Position numbers and translations under genes: made by a program | Notes under the pieces: generated by a model | What the model saw: the letters and a program-made list of their open reading frames with translations, nothing else | Database searches by the model: none | Told to the model about the DNA's origin: nothing | Origin: the human T2T-CHM13v2.0 reference genome, Homo sapiens | NCBI GenBank assembly: GCA_009914755.4 | Contig: CP086569.2 | Coordinates: 48,416,001-48,480,000, forward strand | Direction: 5' to 3' | DNA length: 64,000 nucleotides | Shown here: positions 1-64,000 of the stretch, in pieces | How positions within the stretch are numbered: the first letter of the stretch is position 1 | Layout of the letters: every line of letters starts with the position of its first letter

Positions 1-373
1 TTCATTTATAATATATAGAATTATATAATCATATATAATTATTTATTTTCTATAAAAAATTATATCATTATATAAATTATAATGTATAAAAATTATAATA
101 CTTACTACAAATATATATATTATATATCATATATGATATAGTACCTTTGTTATATATCATAGTACATATAAATGTGTATTATGTTATCTATAATTATATA
201 ATTTCATATATAAGATGTATAATATGTATTATATATTATATATGTTAGGTAATATATATAGTATATATAAGATGACACAGGATAAATATTATATACTATG
301 ACATATAAAATATATGAGGTGATATGTTACATATAAGGCATAGCACATAACATGTAATATATATCATATATAA
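1..373. repeat. AT-rich low-complexity block (partial; the 3' end of a unit truncated by the window edge)
   Basis: Matches 2421-2792 and 4841-5210. TA/ATATA-rich. Confidence 0.85.
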
Positions 374-671
374 TTTTTTTTTAGACAGAGTCTTGTCCTG
401 TTGGACAGGGTGGAGTACAATGGCGCCATCTTTGCTCACTGCAACATCTGCCTCACGGGTCCAAGCGATTGTCCTCCCTCAACCTCCCAGGTAGCTGGGA
501 CTACACCACACTGGGACTACACCAGCTGCCTCAAGGCCTAGCTAATTTTTTGTATTTTTAGTAGTGACAGCGTTTCACTGTATTGGCCAGGATGGTCTTG
601 ATCTCTTCACCTTGTGATCCCCTTGCCTTGGCCTCCAAATTTGCTGGGATTACAGGCCTGAGCCAAGATCC
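374..671 (-). mobile_element. Alu (AluS/J-like), antisense, unit copy 1; subtype A, the most divergent copy
   Basis: Plus strand reads poly-T(9) + 'agacagagtcttgtcctgttggacagggtggagtacaatggcgccatctttgctcactgcaac...gtagctgggactacaccacactgggactacaccagctgcc...ctagctaattttttgtatttttagtagtgacagcgtttcactgtattggccaggatggtcttgatctc...ctgggattacaggcctgagccaagatcc'. This is the reverse complement of the Alu consensus: A-tail ...GAGACTC...CCAGCCTGGG... up to ...TGGCTCAGGCCTGTAATCCCAGCA. The '...AATCGCTTGGACCC...' motif (rc of 'gggtccaagcgatt') is AluS/J-type rather than AluY 'AATGGCGTGAACC'. 5' end truncated by about 8-10 bp. Internal duplication 'gggactacaccacactgggactacacc'. Heavy CpG decay. Private changes 'ttggacagg', 'cctcaaggcctagc', 'ttgtattttt'. 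Possible target-site duplication remnant 'atat(a)tttttt' on both flanks. Confidence 0.93.
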
Positions 672-1234
672 ATATTTTTTAAATGAAAAAAAATTTGAAA
701 GGTACTCTGCTTGGTACAATAATCAAATGTATAAACTGAGGAATAAAACATAACCATGAAAGCTACTTATAACTGCATATGGAAAATACAGAGGATAATT
801 TTTTAAATAACATATTTTGAAAGCCTTAACTAGTAATTTGAAGAGTTGGCATTTGAAAGGCCAGTATGAATATACCTTCAAAGCAGCAACACAGGTTCCC
901 CATGAGAAAAAGCAAACTCAGGGAAAATAAAACCACAAAGGTTCAATCTCTTCTGACCTTTGAAATACACAGCACAGACAGTGGTCCTTAGGAGGAAGAG
1001 CAGGAGACCCCTAATTCCGTCACCATGGCGATAGGGCATAAACATTGCTGGGTGAGGGCACAATCCACATTGTGAGGTCCAACTGCTGCCAGGAAGACAG
1101 GAGTGCTTTTACATAGACCGAAATGTCATTGAAGGCTCAGAGTTTTGTTTCAAGAACTGAATCCCAAGCCCACACGTTATTAGGCTGCACTTCTTAAAAC
1201 AAGTTATGAGATGGGAAAAAGGGCACCCACAAAC
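672..1234. other. Complex (non-low-complexity) about 560 bp segment of the repeat unit; origin unknown. Recurs in every unit, running from Alu end+1 to ORF start+356
   Basis: Sequence 'catattttttaaatgaaaaaaaatttgaaaggtactctgcttggtacaataatcaaatg ... ccatggcgatagggcataaacattgctgggtgagggcacaatccacattgtgaggtccaactgctgccaggaagacagg ... gggcacccacaaacatacg'. About 45% GC. Not recognisably Alu or simple repeat. Carries the recurrent 61-codon minus-strand ORF. Begins with a variable A-run ('aaatgaaaaaaaa' or 'aaataaaaaaaaa'). Confidence 0.6.
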
Positions 1235-2792
1235 ATACGTATACATTATGTATATAATAATATACAGTATCATATATATAATATATATAACCTATGTATA
1301 ATATTGTTTTACATCCTGCATCTTATGTTATATATAGTATAAAATATAATAATTGATAATATATAAGTTTTATATTTATACAATATGACATATAGTATAT
1401 ATTATAATTTATGACATATATAATATATGTTATATATCATATATAGAATATATTATACGGTTAATATACGTATCAAATATAAATTATACATTATATATAT
1501 TATATATAATATATCTGTTATATATAATACCCATTATGCATAATATATATATTATGTCTATGTTATATATAGCATAAAACAACATATAATAATATATAAT
1601 TGTATATATAAAATGCGACATATAATATATATTATATTTTATGACATATGTAATACATATTATATATTATATATAATACGTTGTATGTATAACACCTATA
1701 TTAAATATATATTATATGACTATGTTATTAATTACATGTCACATATGTTATATATTATATATTTTACATAGAATATACCGGTTACATACAATATATACTA
1801 TGTTACCTATAATGTAAAATTTATTACATGTAAAATAAAGAATGCAATATATGATGTATAATTTATAATATACAATATGTGGAATGTGATATATATAACA
1901 TATAATATATGATATATGATATACAGTATATGATATATAACATACAATATATGATACCTAATATATATGGCATACAATATATATTTTATGATATGTATTC
2001 TATATGTTTTATATTCTGTTATATATAACTATTTGAAATTATATATAACTGTATAATATTTTATGTAAATATGTAATATAATATATATAACTATATAATA
2101 TATTATATATAACTATATATTATGTTATATATACTTTTATAACATAATTTACATAAAATATCATAATATAATATATATTATATTATTTCATATTACATAA
2201 ATATATATTACATATCACCCTATATAAGTAACATACATAATAGTATAATATAGATTATATTATGTTATATTAAATATCATATATATCATGTATCATATAT
2301 TCTATAATATATATTATACATTATATAATATGCATGTTGTCTATTATGTGATATATATAACTATATATATAATTATATTATTATACATATAACTAGATAA
2401 ACATGTAATTCTACATATTTTCATTTATAATATATAGAATTATATAATCATATATAATTATTTATATTCTATAAAAAATTATATCATTATATAAATTATA
2501 ATATATAAAAATTATAATATGTACTACAAATATATATATTATATATCATATATGATATAGTACCTTTGTTATATATCATAATACATATAAATGTGTATTA
2601 TGTTATCTATAATTATATAATTTCATATATAAGATGTATAATATGTATTATATATTATATATGTTATGTAATATATATAGTATATATAAGATGACACAGG
2701 ATAAATATTATATACTATGACATATAAAATATATGAGGTTATATGTTACATATAAGGCATAGCACATAACATGTAATATATATCATATATAA
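1235..2792. repeat. AT-rich low-complexity block of unit 1 (about 1.56 kb, about 85-90% A+T by eye)
   Basis: Degenerate (TA)n/(ATATAA)n-like sequence, dense in short palindromes ('ttacatgtaa', 'atatcatatatgatat'). Contains an internal roughly 230-bp sub-duplication (about 1310-1545 vs 1545-1790). Confidence 0.85.
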
Positions 2793-61153: not shown

Positions 61154-61716
61154 ATACTTTTTAAATGAAAAAAAATTTCAAAGGTACTCTGCTTGGTACA
61201 ATAATCAAATGTATATACTGAGGAATAAAACATAACCATGAAACCTACTTATAACTGCATATGGAAAATACAGAGGATAATTTTTTAAATAACATATTTT
61301 GAAAGCCTTAACTAGTAATTTGAAGAGTTGGCATTTGAAAGGCCAGTATGAATATACCTTCAAAGCAGCAACACAGGTTCCCCATGAGAAAAAGCAAACT
61401 CAGGGAAAATAAAAACACAAAGGTTCAATCTCTTCTGACCTTTGAAAGACACAGCACAGACAGTGGTCCTTAGGACGAAGAGCAGGAGACCCCTAATTCC
61501 GTCACCATGGCGATAGGGCATAAACATTGCTGGGTGAGGGCACAATCCACATTGTGAGGTCCAACTGCTGCCAGGAAGACAGGCGTGCTTTTACATAGAC
61601 CGAAAGGTCATTGAAGGCTCAGAGTTTTGTTTCAAGAACTGAATCCCAAGCCCACACGTTATTAGGCTGCGCTTCTTAAACCAAGTTATGAGATGGGAAA
61701 AAGGGCACCCACAACC

Positions 61717-63275
61717 ATACGTATACATTATGTATATAATAATATACAGTGTCATATATATAATATATATAACCTATGTATAATATTGTTTTACATCCTG
61801 CATCTTATGTTATATATATTGTATAAAATATAATTATTGATAATATATAAGTTTTATAATTATGCTACATGACATATAGTATATATTATAATTTATGACA
61901 TATATAATATATGTTATATATCATATATAGAATATATTATACGGTTAATATACGTATTAAATATAAATTATACATTATATATATTATATATAATATATCT
62001 GTTATATATAATACCCATTATGCATAATATATATATTATGTCTATGTTATATATAGTATAAAACAACATATAATAATATATAATTGTATATATAAAATGC
62101 GACATATAATATATATTATATTTTATAACATATGTAATATATATTATATATTATATATAATACGTTGTATGTATAATACCTATATTAAATATATATTATA
62201 TGACTATGTTATTAATTACATGTCACATGTGTTATATATTATATATTTTACATAGAATATACCGGTTACATACAATATATACTATGTTACCTATAATGTA
62301 TAATTTATTACATGTAAAATGAAGAATGCAATATATTATGTAAAATTTATAACATACAATATGTGGAATGTGATATATATAACATATAATATATGATATA
62401 TGATATACAATATATGATATATAACATACAATATATGATTCCTAATATATATGGTATACAATATATATTTTATGATATGAATTCTCTACGTTTTATATTC
62501 TGTTATATATAACTATTTGAAATTATATATAACTGTATAATATTTTATTTAAATATGTAATATAATATATATAACTATATAATATATTATATATAACTAT
62601 ATATTATGTTATATATACTTTTATATCATAATTTACATAAAATATCATAATATAATATATATTATATTATTTCATATTACATAATATATATTACATATCA
62701 CCCAATATAACTAACATACATAATATTATAATATAGATTATATTGTGTTATATTAAATATCATATATATCATGTATCATATATTCTATAATATATATTAC
62801 ACATTATATAATATGTATGTTGTCTATTATGTGATATATATAACTATATATATAATTATATTTTTATACATATAACTAGATAAACATGTAATTCTACATA
62901 TTTTCATTTATAATATGTAGAATTATATAATCATATATAATTGTTTATATTCTATAAAAAATTTTATCATTATATAAATTATAATATATAAAAATTATAA
63001 TATGTACTACAAATATATATAGTATATATCATATATGATATAGTACCTTTGTTATATATCATAATACATATAAATGTGTATTATGTTATCTATAATTATA
63101 TAATTTCATATATAAGATGTATAATATGTATCATATATTATATATGTTATGTAATATATATAGTATATATAAGATGACACAGGATAAATATTATATACTA
63201 TGACATATAAAATATATGAGGTTATATGTTACATATAAGGCATAGCACATAACATGTAATATATATCATATATAA
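61717..63275. repeat. AT-rich low-complexity block, unit 26
   Basis: Homologous at unit offset. Confidence 0.8.
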
Positions 63276-63573
63276 TTTTTTTTTAGACAGAATCTTGTCC
63301 TGTTGCACAGGGTGGGGTACAATGGCGCCATCTTTGCTCACTGCAACTTCTGCCTCACGGGTCCAAGCGATTGTCCTCCCTCAGCCTCCCAGGTAGCTGG
63401 GACTACACCACACTGGGACTACACCAGCTGCCACCAGGCCTAGCTAATTTTTTGGATTTTTAGTAGTGACAGCGTTTCACTGTATTGGCCAGGATGGTCT
63501 TGATCTCTTCACCTTGTGATCCCCTTGCCTTGGCCTCCAAATTTGCTGGGATTACAGGCCTGAGCCAAGATCC
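63276..63573 (-). mobile_element. Alu, antisense, unit copy 27; subtype B
   Basis: B diagnostics. Private 'gccaccaggcctagc'. Confidence 0.93.
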
Positions 63574-64000
63574 ATACTTTTTAAATGAAAAAAAATTTCA
63601 AAGGTACTCTGCTTGGTACAATAATCAAATGTATACACTGAGGAATAAAACATAACCATGAAACCTACTTATAACTGCATATGGAAAATACAGAGGATAA
63701 TTTTTTAAATAACATATTTTGAAAGCCTTAACTAGTAATTTGAAGAGTTGGCATTTGAAAGGCCAGTATGAATATACCTTCAAAGCAGCAACACAGGTTC
63801 CCCATGAGAAAAAGCAAACTCAGGGAAAATAAAAACACAAAGGTTCAATCTCTTCTGACCTTTGAAAGACACAGCACAGACAGTGGTCCTTAGGACGAAG
63901 AGCAGGAGACCCCTAATTCCGTCACCATGGCGATAGGGCATAAACATTGCTGGGTGAGGGCACAATCCACATTGTGAGGTCCAACTGCTGCCAGGAAGAC

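What the first reader, a model, noticed from the sequence alone, without database searches (positions are those of the whole stretch)
1..64000. Whole window is one primate macrosatellite: 64 kb or more of a 2.42-kb tandem unit, about 26.5 copies, array continuing past both edges
An identical landmark recurs 27 times with 2413-2422 bp spacing in head-to-tail orientation, and there is no non-array flank. Arrays of this unit size are typically copy-number polymorphic, heterochromatic and poorly assembled. I do not recognise this unit as any named macrosatellite family, so it may be uncharacterised or merely unfamiliar to me. Its Alu content makes it primate-specific, which contradicts any prokaryotic framing of the window.
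Basis: seen in the sequence. Interest (0 to 1): 0.7.

Follow-up and report, generated by a model that had tools for sequence, protein, structure and literature searches.

The report
Human satellite DYZ2 (HSat1B) array

Summary
All 64,000 bases are one head-to-tail array of a 2,420-bp unit: 26.45 copies, 27 landmarks spaced 2413-2422 bp, units 96.7-100% identical, no flank at either edge.

The unit is not an uncharacterised macrosatellite. It is human satellite I, DYZ2 / HSat1B, first sequenced by Frommer et al. in 1984.
- It matches every published DYZ2 measure I could test: consensus length, part sizes, AT content, GC, CpG density and the 'ACATACG' junction heptamer.
- A published 40-nt probe target, designed from the 1984 sequence and shown to label only Yq, occurs once in all 27 units (14 exact).
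- The consensus is 99.5-99.9% identical to contaminant contigs in unrelated bacterial assemblies, the contamination reported for HSat1B in the T2T-Y paper.

There is no ORF of 90 aa or more. The array shows the expected marks of unequal exchange, including an 8.7-kb, four-unit duplication with 2 mismatches.

The chromosome is unresolved. Yq12 is most likely (about 0.8), but the smaller HSat1B arrays on acrocentric short arms cannot be excluded without a reference genome.

Verdict: already known, low interest.

The parts
1..64000 (+). Uninterrupted head-to-tail HSat1B/DYZ2 array, 26.45 units of about 2,420 bp, cut at both window edges
1..373 (+). Partial first unit: the last 373 bp of an AT-rich segment
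   Evidence: first unit boundary at 374
374..671 (-). Alu part of the first complete unit, 298 bp including the A-tail (read as a T-run on the + strand). The Alu lies on the minus strand, is 5'-truncated at Alu consensus position 13, and differs from AluY by 18% in substitutions (22% with indels). The same 298-bp segment recurs in all 27 units.
   Evidence: Rfam mir-1268 (Alu-like) sub-threshold hit at 2897-2963
641..680 (+). 40-nt target of the published 'Y-chrom' padlock probe, spanning the Alu 5' end and the start of HSATI. A DraI site (TTTAAA) overlaps its 3' end. It recurs in all 27 units: 14 exact, 12 with one mismatch, 1 with two.
672..1239 (+). 'HSATI' moderately GC-rich part of the first complete unit, 568 bp in every unit and 61% AT, ending in the heptamer ACATACG (1233-1239)
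   Evidence: published 566 +/- 16 bp
1240..2792 (+). AT-rich part of the first complete unit (1,553 bp; 1547-1556 bp across units; 86.0% AT). It is made of degenerate short AT-rich sub-repeats with many imperfect inverted repeats, and it holds all the unit-length variation.
39009..47709 (+). First copy of a recent four-unit (9,680-bp lag) tandem duplication
   Evidence: three exact runs of 2629, 2502 and 3568 bp separated by single mismatches; units 17-19 match units 21-23 at about 100%
48689..57389 (+). Second copy of the four-unit duplication (2 mismatches in 8.7 kb)
31851..63313 (+). Homogenised block (units 14-26; units 8-9 at 17341-22175 belong with it). These units are 98.2-100% identical to each other and 98.9-99.7% identical to an independent collapsed contig (L001). 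The remaining units (1-7, 10-13) are 97.6-98.5% identical to L001.
63276..64000 (+). Partial last unit: a complete Alu part plus the first 427 bp of HSATI

Best explanation
The window is a piece of a human HSat1B array, also known as DYZ2, 'HSATI', or the male-specific 2.47-kb satellite I repeat. It most probably comes from one of the DYZ2 blocks that alternate with DYZ1 (HSat3) blocks in the Yq12 heterochromatin. Each 2,420-bp unit is a composite of one old, 5'-truncated Alu, a 568-bp moderately GC-rich 'HSATI' segment, and about 1,553 bp of degenerate AT-rich simple repeats. It encodes nothing. It exists as non-coding, CpG-poor constitutive heterochromatin, and it is propagated and kept uniform by unequal exchange between misaligned units (sister-chromatid exchange) and by intra-array gene conversion. 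What is shown here: the periodicity, the anatomy, the match to published DYZ2 measures and to a published probe, the lack of ORFs, and the marks of recent local duplication and homogenisation. What is inferred from the literature: the heterochromatic and hypermethylated state, the exchange mechanism, and the Yq12 location.
For: Periodicity and homogeneity:
- 27 landmarks are spaced 2413-2422 bp apart, and the units are on average 98.1% identical.

Match to published DYZ2 measures (window value, then published value):
- Consensus unit: 2,420 bp. Published consensus and median: 2,420 bp.
- Alu part: 298 bp with tail, truncated at consensus position 13, 18% substitutions or 22% with indels from AluY. 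Published: 5'-truncated, 290 +/- 2 bp, about 20% diverged.
- HSATI part: 568 bp. Published: 566 +/- 16 bp.
- AT-rich part: 86.0% AT, and it holds all the length variation. Published: >85% AT, with length variation in that part.
- GC: 24.6%. CpG: 1 per 143 bp. Published: 24% and 1 per 150 bp.
- 'ACATACG' sits at the HSATI/AT-rich junction in 23 of 26 units, as described.

Sequence-level tests:
- The 40-nt target of the 'Y-chrom' padlock probe was designed from Frommer 1984 and labelled only Yq in male metaphases (PMC2212658). It occurs once in each of the 27 units, 14 of them exact, with 0 expected by chance, and the DraI site used in that protocol lies next to it.
- An in-silico HaeIII digest gives one 2.14-2.15-kb fragment per unit. 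This matches the classical roughly 2.1-kb male-specific HaeIII band that defined DYZ2 (my own knowledge of Cooke 1976, not verified in the library).
- The consensus is 99.3-99.9% identical to 11 of 18 short contigs in unrelated bacterial assemblies, for example L001 at 99.88% over 2,497 bp. This is the human HSat1B contamination described by Rhie et al. and it indicates a human origin.

Mechanism:
- 39009-47709 is duplicated at 48689-57389 with 2 mismatches.
- A homogenised block lies next to more diverged units. This is the pattern attributed to unequal exchange in Yq12.

Yq12 location:
- Unit identity above 98% is typical of Y copies, whereas chr15 and chr21 HSat1B accounts for most of the low-identity (<95%) allelic alignments on the proximal short arms.
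Against: No reference genome (T2T-CHM13+Y), no Dfam library and no copy of GenBank X00470.1 was available. Full-length identity to the named consensus was therefore not measured directly. Identity rests on one 40-nt published sequence plus many quantitative matches.

The window has no flank, so neither a DYZ1 neighbour nor any chromosome assignment can be seen.

Hallast et al. state that 93.7% of Yq12 units are exactly 2,420 bp, although their Methods give 46.8% at exactly 2,413 bp by another delimitation. Here only 10 of 26 units are exactly 2,420 bp measured landmark to landmark, though the median is 2,420. Eleven units are only 97.6-98.5% identical to the majority sequence. Both features would fit a peripheral Yq12 block, but they would equally fit an acrocentric array.
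Confidence: 0.9

Rival explanations
1. The family is the same (HSat1B), but the array lies on the short arm of an acrocentric autosome (chr13, 14, 15, 21 or 22) rather than on Yq12.
For: HSat1B/DYZ2 arrays exist on all five acrocentric short arms. The window has no flank. Unit lengths spread over 2413-2422 bp and 11 units are 1.5-2.4% diverged from the majority sequence, which is less uniform than the central Yq12 blocks are described to be.
Against: The acrocentric arrays hold 'smaller amounts' against 14 Mb on the Y. The padlock target that matches all 27 units labelled only Yq in situ, though that method is insensitive. HSat1B on chr15 and chr21 accounts for most of the low-identity (<95%) allelic alignments on the proximal short arms, whereas the units here are 96.7-100% alike. 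The consensus is 99.9% identical to collapsed contaminant contigs, which should reflect the most abundant human variant.
Confidence: 0.15
2. It is an uncharacterised primate macrosatellite family not yet named.
For: I made no direct full-length alignment to a named reference.
Against: Unit length, three-part anatomy, part sizes, GC, CpG density, the junction heptamer, the HaeIII fragment and a 40-nt published probe sequence all match DYZ2/HSat1B.
Confidence: 0.01
3. It is an HSat1B array from a non-human ape genome.
For: Ape T2T satellite annotations include an HSat1B class.
Against: The window consensus is 99.5-99.9% identical to contaminant contigs in bacterial isolate assemblies, whose plausible source is human DNA. 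It also matches exactly a probe designed from a human clone. The ape sex-chromosome paper reports HSat1A and StSat expansions on non-human Ys, not HSat1B.
Confidence: 0.02
4. The regularity is partly an assembly artefact: a real DYZ2 array whose copy order, copy number or perfect four-unit duplication was created by misassembly of near-identical long reads.
For: Yq12 is among the hardest regions to assemble. The duplicated copies differ at only 2 of 8.7 kb.
Against: Units carry many private variants in a consistent order, and the homogeneity gradient is smooth. Recent multi-unit duplications are documented as real features of Yq12. Nothing in the sequence looks collapsed or chimeric.
Confidence: 0.05

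Closest known systems
DYZ2 / HSat1B on human Yq12 (Frommer, Prosser & Vincent 1984, GenBank X00470.1; Rhie et al. 2023; Hallast et al. 2023)
   Same: A 2,420-bp unit in head-to-tail arrays. One 5'-truncated Alu per unit, about 20% diverged. A roughly 566-bp HSATI part. A >85% AT part that carries the length variation. 24% GC and about 1 CpG per 150 bp. ACATACG at the junction. Units mostly >98% alike. Local multi-unit duplications. The 40-nt probe target is present in every unit.
   Different: Nothing I could test differs in kind. Only 38% of units are exactly 2,420 bp by my delimitation, against the 93.7% stated (the methods may differ). The left half of the window is slightly more diverged than typical central blocks. 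Alternation with DYZ1 cannot be seen in a 64-kb window.
HSat1B arrays on acrocentric short arms (chr13, 14, 15, 21, 22)
   Same: The same family with the same composite unit. The literature infers that they were seeded from the Y-linked repeat.
   Different: They are much smaller in total. HSat1B on chr15 and chr21 is the main source of the low-identity (<95%) allelic alignments on the proximal short arms. Their consensus sequences lie closest to the peripheral Yq12 arrays. No sequence was available to compare with the window.
22q11.2 LCR22 'Translocation Breakpoint Type A' / FAM230 AT-rich repeats (Babcock et al. 2007; PMC5906017)
   Same: The same HSATI - Alu - AT-rich motif order, derived from a satellite I-like ancestor.
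   Different: Only about 85% identical to X00470.1. They are present as a few dispersed or short tandem copies inside segmental duplications, carry the PATRR palindrome and are embedded in lincRNA genes. They are not 64-kb homogeneous arrays.
Named human macrosatellites (D4Z4 3.3 kb, DXZ4 3 kb, SST1/NBL2 about 1.4-2.5 kb)
   Same: Kilobase-scale tandem units, copy-number polymorphism and heterochromatic behaviour (general knowledge; SST1).
   Different: The sequences are unrelated. Those units are GC-rich or CpG-rich and some carry genes (DUX4) or CTCF sites. This unit is 75% AT, CpG-poor and has no ORF. It is classed among the classical satellites.
HSat1A (SAR), the other 'satellite I' component
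   Same: It comes from the same AT-rich density fraction and shares the historical name.
   Different: It is a 42-bp simple unit with no Alu and no HSATI segment, so it is an unrelated sequence family.

Membership tests
DYZ2 / HSat1B (human satellite I, 2.47-kb repeat) | Head-to-tail tandem unit of about 2.4 kb (published consensus and median 2,420 bp) | tested here: met
   Consensus is exactly 2,420 bp. Units are 2413-2422 bp with median 2,420.
DYZ2 / HSat1B (human satellite I, 2.47-kb repeat) | One 5'-truncated Alu per unit, about 290 bp and about 20% diverged from AluY, of single origin | tested here: met
   298 bp including the tail in all 27 units. The copies are 95.6-100% alike and share the same flanks.
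DYZ2 / HSat1B (human satellite I, 2.47-kb repeat) | 'HSATI' segment of about 566 bp, more GC-rich, adjoining the Alu 5' end | tested here: met
   568 bp in all 26 complete units, 39% GC, against 566 +/- 16 bp. Sequence identity to Dfam HSATI itself was not measurable.
DYZ2 / HSat1B (human satellite I, 2.47-kb repeat) | Extremely AT-rich (>85% AT) simple-repeat segment that carries the unit-length variation | tested here: met
   1547-1556 bp and 85.6-86.3% AT. The Alu and HSATI lengths are invariant.
DYZ2 / HSat1B (human satellite I, 2.47-kb repeat) | Heptamer ACATACG at the HSATI / AT-rich junction | tested here: met
   Present in phase at 23 of 26 junctions, as described.
DYZ2 / HSat1B (human satellite I, 2.47-kb repeat) | Overall composition of about 24% GC and about 1 CpG per 150 bp | tested here: met
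   24.55% GC and 1 CpG per 143 bp.
DYZ2 / HSat1B (human satellite I, 2.47-kb repeat) | Sequence identity to the reference clone or consensus (X00470.1, Dfam HSATI, T2T DYZ2 consensus) | tested here: inconclusive
   Only a 40-nt published stretch derived from Frommer 1984 could be tested. It is found in 27 of 27 units, 14 of them exact, with 0 expected by chance. Indirect support comes from 99.5-99.9% identity to human-contaminant contigs. A full-length comparison is not possible with these tools.
DYZ2 / HSat1B (human satellite I, 2.47-kb repeat) | Male-specific HaeIII fragment of about 2.1 kb (the classical definition; the value is from my own knowledge) | tested here: met
   An in-silico HaeIII digest gives one 2.14-2.15-kb fragment per unit. 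Male specificity itself is not testable.
DYZ2 on Yq12 specifically | Location in Yq12, in blocks alternating with DYZ1 (HSat3, about 3.5 kb) | not testable with these tools
   The window has no flank and no reference genome is available. The base rate favours the Y.
DYZ2 on Yq12 specifically | CpG hypermethylation and constitutive heterochromatin | not testable with these tools
   This is an epigenetic state, reported.
Macrosatellite (descriptive class: tandem units of 1 kb or more, polymorphic copy number) | Kilobase-scale unit in a long tandem array | tested here: met
   The label is only descriptive. Copy-number polymorphism is documented in the literature and was not tested here.

The most novel reading that the evidence does not exclude
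The most novel reading still open is that this array is not one of the catalogued Yq12 or acrocentric blocks. It could be an HSat1B array at an unreported location or on an unusual haplotype, for example a peripheral, older block type with more length heterogeneity than the 93.7%-uniform Yq12 units. If the window was drawn from a dataset labelled as microbial or metagenomic, it could instead be a 64-kb piece of human Y heterochromatin deposited there as host contamination.
Probability: 0.05. Interest if true: 0.2.

Novelty: already known. Interest (0 to 1): 0.08.

Why it matters
For biology it matters little. DYZ2/HSat1B has been known since the 1970s-80s, and it is now assembled base by base in T2T-Y and in dozens of further Y chromosomes. 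The value here is practical. The window should be labelled as human satellite DNA and removed from any scan aimed at microbial or novel elements. The same unit sits as unflagged human contamination in at least 18 GTDB representative bacterial assemblies, once scaffolded inside a chromosome, and in many metagenome contigs, where it can generate false 'repeat' or 'gene' discoveries.

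Tried and rejected
- Tandem Repeats Finder cannot see the 2.42-kb period because its longest period is 500. It returned 427 rows of short AT-rich sub-repeats, so I measured periodicity by k-mer spacing and landmark search instead.
- The roughly 12-kb wave in the 2-kb GC profile is aliasing between the 2,000-bp step and the 2,420-bp unit. It is not a higher-order repeat, and identity by lag shows no regular higher-order period.
- Rfam gave only a sub-threshold mir-1268 hit (36.9 bits against a gathering score of 83). 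I rejected it as a gene: my reading (own knowledge, not tested) is that it only reflects the Alu part. No SRP/7SL hit was listed.
- Coding and prokaryotic readings are rejected: there are 0 ORFs of 90 aa or more in six frames over 64 kb.
- The Frommer 1984 (PMC318713) and Babcock 2007 (PMC1832092) papers are not held, so the original sequence could not be read. I used a derived probe sequence instead.
- The T2T-Y preprint text gives no FISH primer sequences.
- I tried to separate Y-type from acrocentric-type copies by the identity classes of contaminant and metagenome contigs. There is a 99.0-99.9% class and a tail at 87-98%, but without labelled references the classes cannot be assigned to chromosomes.
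- Literature look-ups for the sizes of autosomal HSat1B arrays gave no numbers.
- Independent Alu insertions in AT-rich DNA are rejected.

Full report
**1. The observation**

- A 34-nt landmark inside the Alu part (up to 5 mismatches allowed) occurs 27 times on the same strand, at spacings of 2413-2422 bp.
- 84% of all nearest-neighbour distances between identical 20-mers lie in 2400-2430 bp, with the mode at 2420.
- The 26 complete units align at a mean of 98.1% pairwise identity (range 96.7-100%).
- The majority consensus is exactly 2,420 bp, so the window holds 26.45 copies.
- The window starts inside an AT-rich segment and ends inside an HSATI segment, so there is no flank on either side.
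- Tandem Repeats Finder could only list the short AT-rich sub-repeats because its longest period is 500.
- The apparent 12-kb wave in the GC profile is aliasing between the 2,000-bp step and the 2,420-bp unit.

**2. Anatomy of the unit**

Each unit has three parts.
- **Alu.** It lies on the minus strand and measures 298 bp including its A-tail, in all 27 copies. It is truncated at Alu consensus position 13. It differs from AluY by 18% in substitutions, or 22% with indels. AluSx scores almost the same, so the subfamily is uncertain, as the literature also says.
- **HSATI.** This is a 568-bp, 39%-GC segment with the same length in all 26 copies. It ends in ACATACG.
- **AT-rich part.** It measures 1547-1556 bp and is 86.0% AT. 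It consists of degenerate short AT-rich repeats with many imperfect inverted repeats, and it carries all the unit-length variation.

The 27 Alus share identical flanks and truncation. They are 95.6-100% identical to each other while about 18% diverged from AluY. They are therefore one ancestral insertion amplified with the unit.

No ORF reaches 90 aa in any frame across the 64 kb. Rfam gives only a sub-threshold mir-1268 hit, which I take to reflect the Alu part (own knowledge).

**3. Identification**

The literature describes exactly this object as DYZ2, now also called HSat1B and formerly 'HSATI'. Frommer et al. [quoted passage not shown]

| Feature | Published for DYZ2 | This window |
|---|---|---|
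| Unit length | consensus and median 2,420 bp | consensus and median 2,420 bp |
| Alu part | 5'-truncated, 290 +/- 2 bp, about 20% diverged | truncated at position 13, 298 bp with tail, 18-22% diverged |
| HSATI part | 566 +/- 16 bp | 568 bp |
| AT-rich part | >85% AT, holds the length variation | 86.0% AT, holds all the length variation |
| GC content | 24% | 24.6% |
| CpG density | 1 per 150 bp | 1 per 143 bp |
| Junction heptamer | ACATACG at the HSATI/AT-rich junction | present at 23 of 26 junctions |
| Unit identity | mostly >98% | mean 98.1%, range 96.7-100% |

An in-silico HaeIII digest yields one 2.14-2.15-kb fragment per unit. This corresponds to the classical roughly 2.1-kb male-specific HaeIII band that defined DYZ2. 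That value comes from my own knowledge and I could not verify it in the library.

**4. Sequence-level tests**

Lohmann et al. 2007 (PMC2212658) print a padlock probe ('Y-chrom') designed from Frommer's sequence. Its two arms join to give the 40-nt target TTGCTGGGATTACAGGCCTGAGCCAAGATCCATATTTTTT. This target spans the truncated Alu 5' end and the first bases of HSATI.
- The 40-mer occurs once in every one of the 27 units: 14 exact, 12 with one mismatch and 1 with two. None is expected by chance.
- The DraI site used in their protocol overlaps the 3' end of the target.
- Their paper mislabels the repeat 'DYZ1', although it cites the 2.47-kb satellite I sequence.

As a second test I scanned public collections with a 32-mer from HSATI that is present in all 27 units.
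- It found 18 short contigs in phylogenetically unrelated bacterial assemblies and 24 metagenome stretches.
- Eleven of the 18 bacterial-assembly contigs are 99.3-99.9% identical to the window consensus. For example, L001 is 99.88% identical over 2,497 bp.
- This is the HSat1B contamination of bacterial genomes reported by Rhie et al.. It indicates a human origin rather than another ape.

I could not align the window to X00470.1, Dfam HSATI or a T2T assembly, so full-length identity to a named reference is inferred rather than measured.

**5. How it works**

This is non-coding satellite DNA.

Shown here:
- There is no coding capacity.
- The structural regularity is extreme.
- There are clear marks of recent intra-array exchange. 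39009-47709 is repeated at 48689-57389, a lag of 9,680 bp or four units, with only 2 mismatches in 8.7 kb.
- Units 8, 9 and 14-26 form a homogenised block, 98.2-100% identical to each other and 98.9-99.7% identical to the independent contig L001. Units 1-7 and 10-13 are more diverged, at 97.6-98.5% to L001.

Inferred from the literature:
- Arrays expand, contract and homogenise by unequal sister-chromatid exchange and gene conversion, most actively in the array interior, which leaves older units at the edges.
- The arrays are hypermethylated heterochromatin.
- Copy number varies several-fold among men, while the DYZ1:DYZ2 unit ratio stays close to 1:1.

By that reading, the left part of the window may lie nearer a block edge. 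This is speculation.

**6. Which chromosome**

This remains unresolved.

For Yq12:
- T2T-Y holds 14 Mb of it, against 'smaller amounts' on acrocentric short arms.
- The in-situ result with the matching probe labelled only Yq.
- The units are highly alike.
- The consensus is almost identical to collapsed contaminant contigs, which should reflect the most abundant human variant.

Against certainty:
- The window has no flank.
- Acrocentric arrays belong to the same family.
- Only 10 of 26 units are exactly 2,420 bp, whereas states 93.7% for Yq12. The same paper's Methods give 46.8% at 2,413 bp by another delimitation, so this may be a difference of method.

My estimates are about 0.97 for the family, about 0.8 for Yq12 and about 0.15 for an acrocentric short arm.

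**7. Novelty and verdict**

The element is already known. What remains useful is housekeeping. The window is human heterochromatin and should not be treated as a candidate novel or prokaryotic feature. The same repeat also contaminates public microbial assemblies.

Noticed in passing
L006 5897-6920 (Nostocoides japonicum T1-X7, NZ_HF570958.1, 5.16-Mb scaffold): A 1,024-bp piece of the human HSat1B unit (98.1% to the window consensus) sits between two runs of N inside a 71-74% GC actinobacterial chromosome scaffold. A human contaminant contig has been scaffolded into a bacterial reference chromosome.
   Followed up: partly
L001-L018 (GTDB representative genomes): Eighteen unrelated bacterial or MAG assemblies (Mycobacterium, Bifidobacterium, Streptomyces, Actinomadura, Alcanivorax, Azospirillum and others) carry contigs made wholly or, in L003 and L006, largely of this unit. 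Apart from L006 they are 0.6-2.5 kb contigs, and all are 96.7-99.9% identical to the window consensus. This is unflagged human contamination of the kind reported by Rhie et al..
   Followed up: partly
L021 1-702, L023 1425-2937, L030 1390-6438: Metagenome contigs join a 99.4-99.9% HSat1B stretch directly to unrelated, non-satellite sequence that looks microbial. These are probably chimeric assemblies.
   Followed up: no
L031 1160-1841 (PKQM01000722.1): A diverged HSat1B copy (86.8% to the window consensus) abuts GGAAT-rich HSat3-like DNA (56 pentamers per kb). This is an HSat1B/HSat3 junction, as expected at DYZ2/DYZ1 or chr15 block borders.
   Followed up: no
L019, L027, L040, L042 (BNJT01002008.1, 54 kb); L022 (BNJU01004413.1, 54.6 kb): Two metagenome contigs of about 54 kb also appear to be long HSat1B arrays, at 92-98% identity to the window consensus. 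They may be noisy long-read assemblies of host DNA.
   Followed up: no
window 39009-47709 and 48689-57389: A four-unit (9,680-bp) tandem duplication with only 2 mismatches in 8.7 kb. It is either a very recent unequal-exchange event or, less likely, an assembly artefact.
   Followed up: yes
window, position 35 of the padlock target (e.g. 20017, 22439, 39376 ... 63577): A T-to-C variant (CCATATTTTTT to CCATACTTTTT) marks 12 of the 27 units. All 12 lie among the units starting at 19716 and 22138, at 39075-56014, and at 60856-63276. Five of them also carry AAATGA to AAATAA just downstream. These are sub-variant markers that could be used to place the block in a reference.
   Followed up: partly
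window 2897-2963 (-) and the same phase in other units: An Rfam mir-1268 match at 36.9 bits, well below the gathering score of 83. As I recall it, this miRNA family is itself Alu-derived, so the hit most likely only reflects the Alu part.
   Followed up: yes
Alu part, e.g. window 500-530 (minus-strand Alu positions about 145-175): Relative to AluY, the unit's Alu carries an internal insertion of about 15 bp that duplicates GTAGTCCCAG (GTGTAGTCCCAGTGTGGTGTAGTCCCAGC). It is present in the consensus and so predates the amplification.
   Followed up: no
window-wide unit lengths: Only 10 of 26 units are exactly 2,420 bp (range 2413-2422, median 2,420), whereas the Hallast supplement states that 93.7% of Yq12 DYZ2 units are 2,420 bp. 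This could be a difference in how units are delimited, or a sign of a peripheral or non-Y block.
   Followed up: partly
literature (PMC2212658): Lohmann et al. 2007 call the 2.47-kb satellite I repeat 'DYZ1' and give its unit as 2.7 kb, although their probe sequence matches DYZ2/HSat1B. This naming slip could mislead text-based look-ups.
   Followed up: yes
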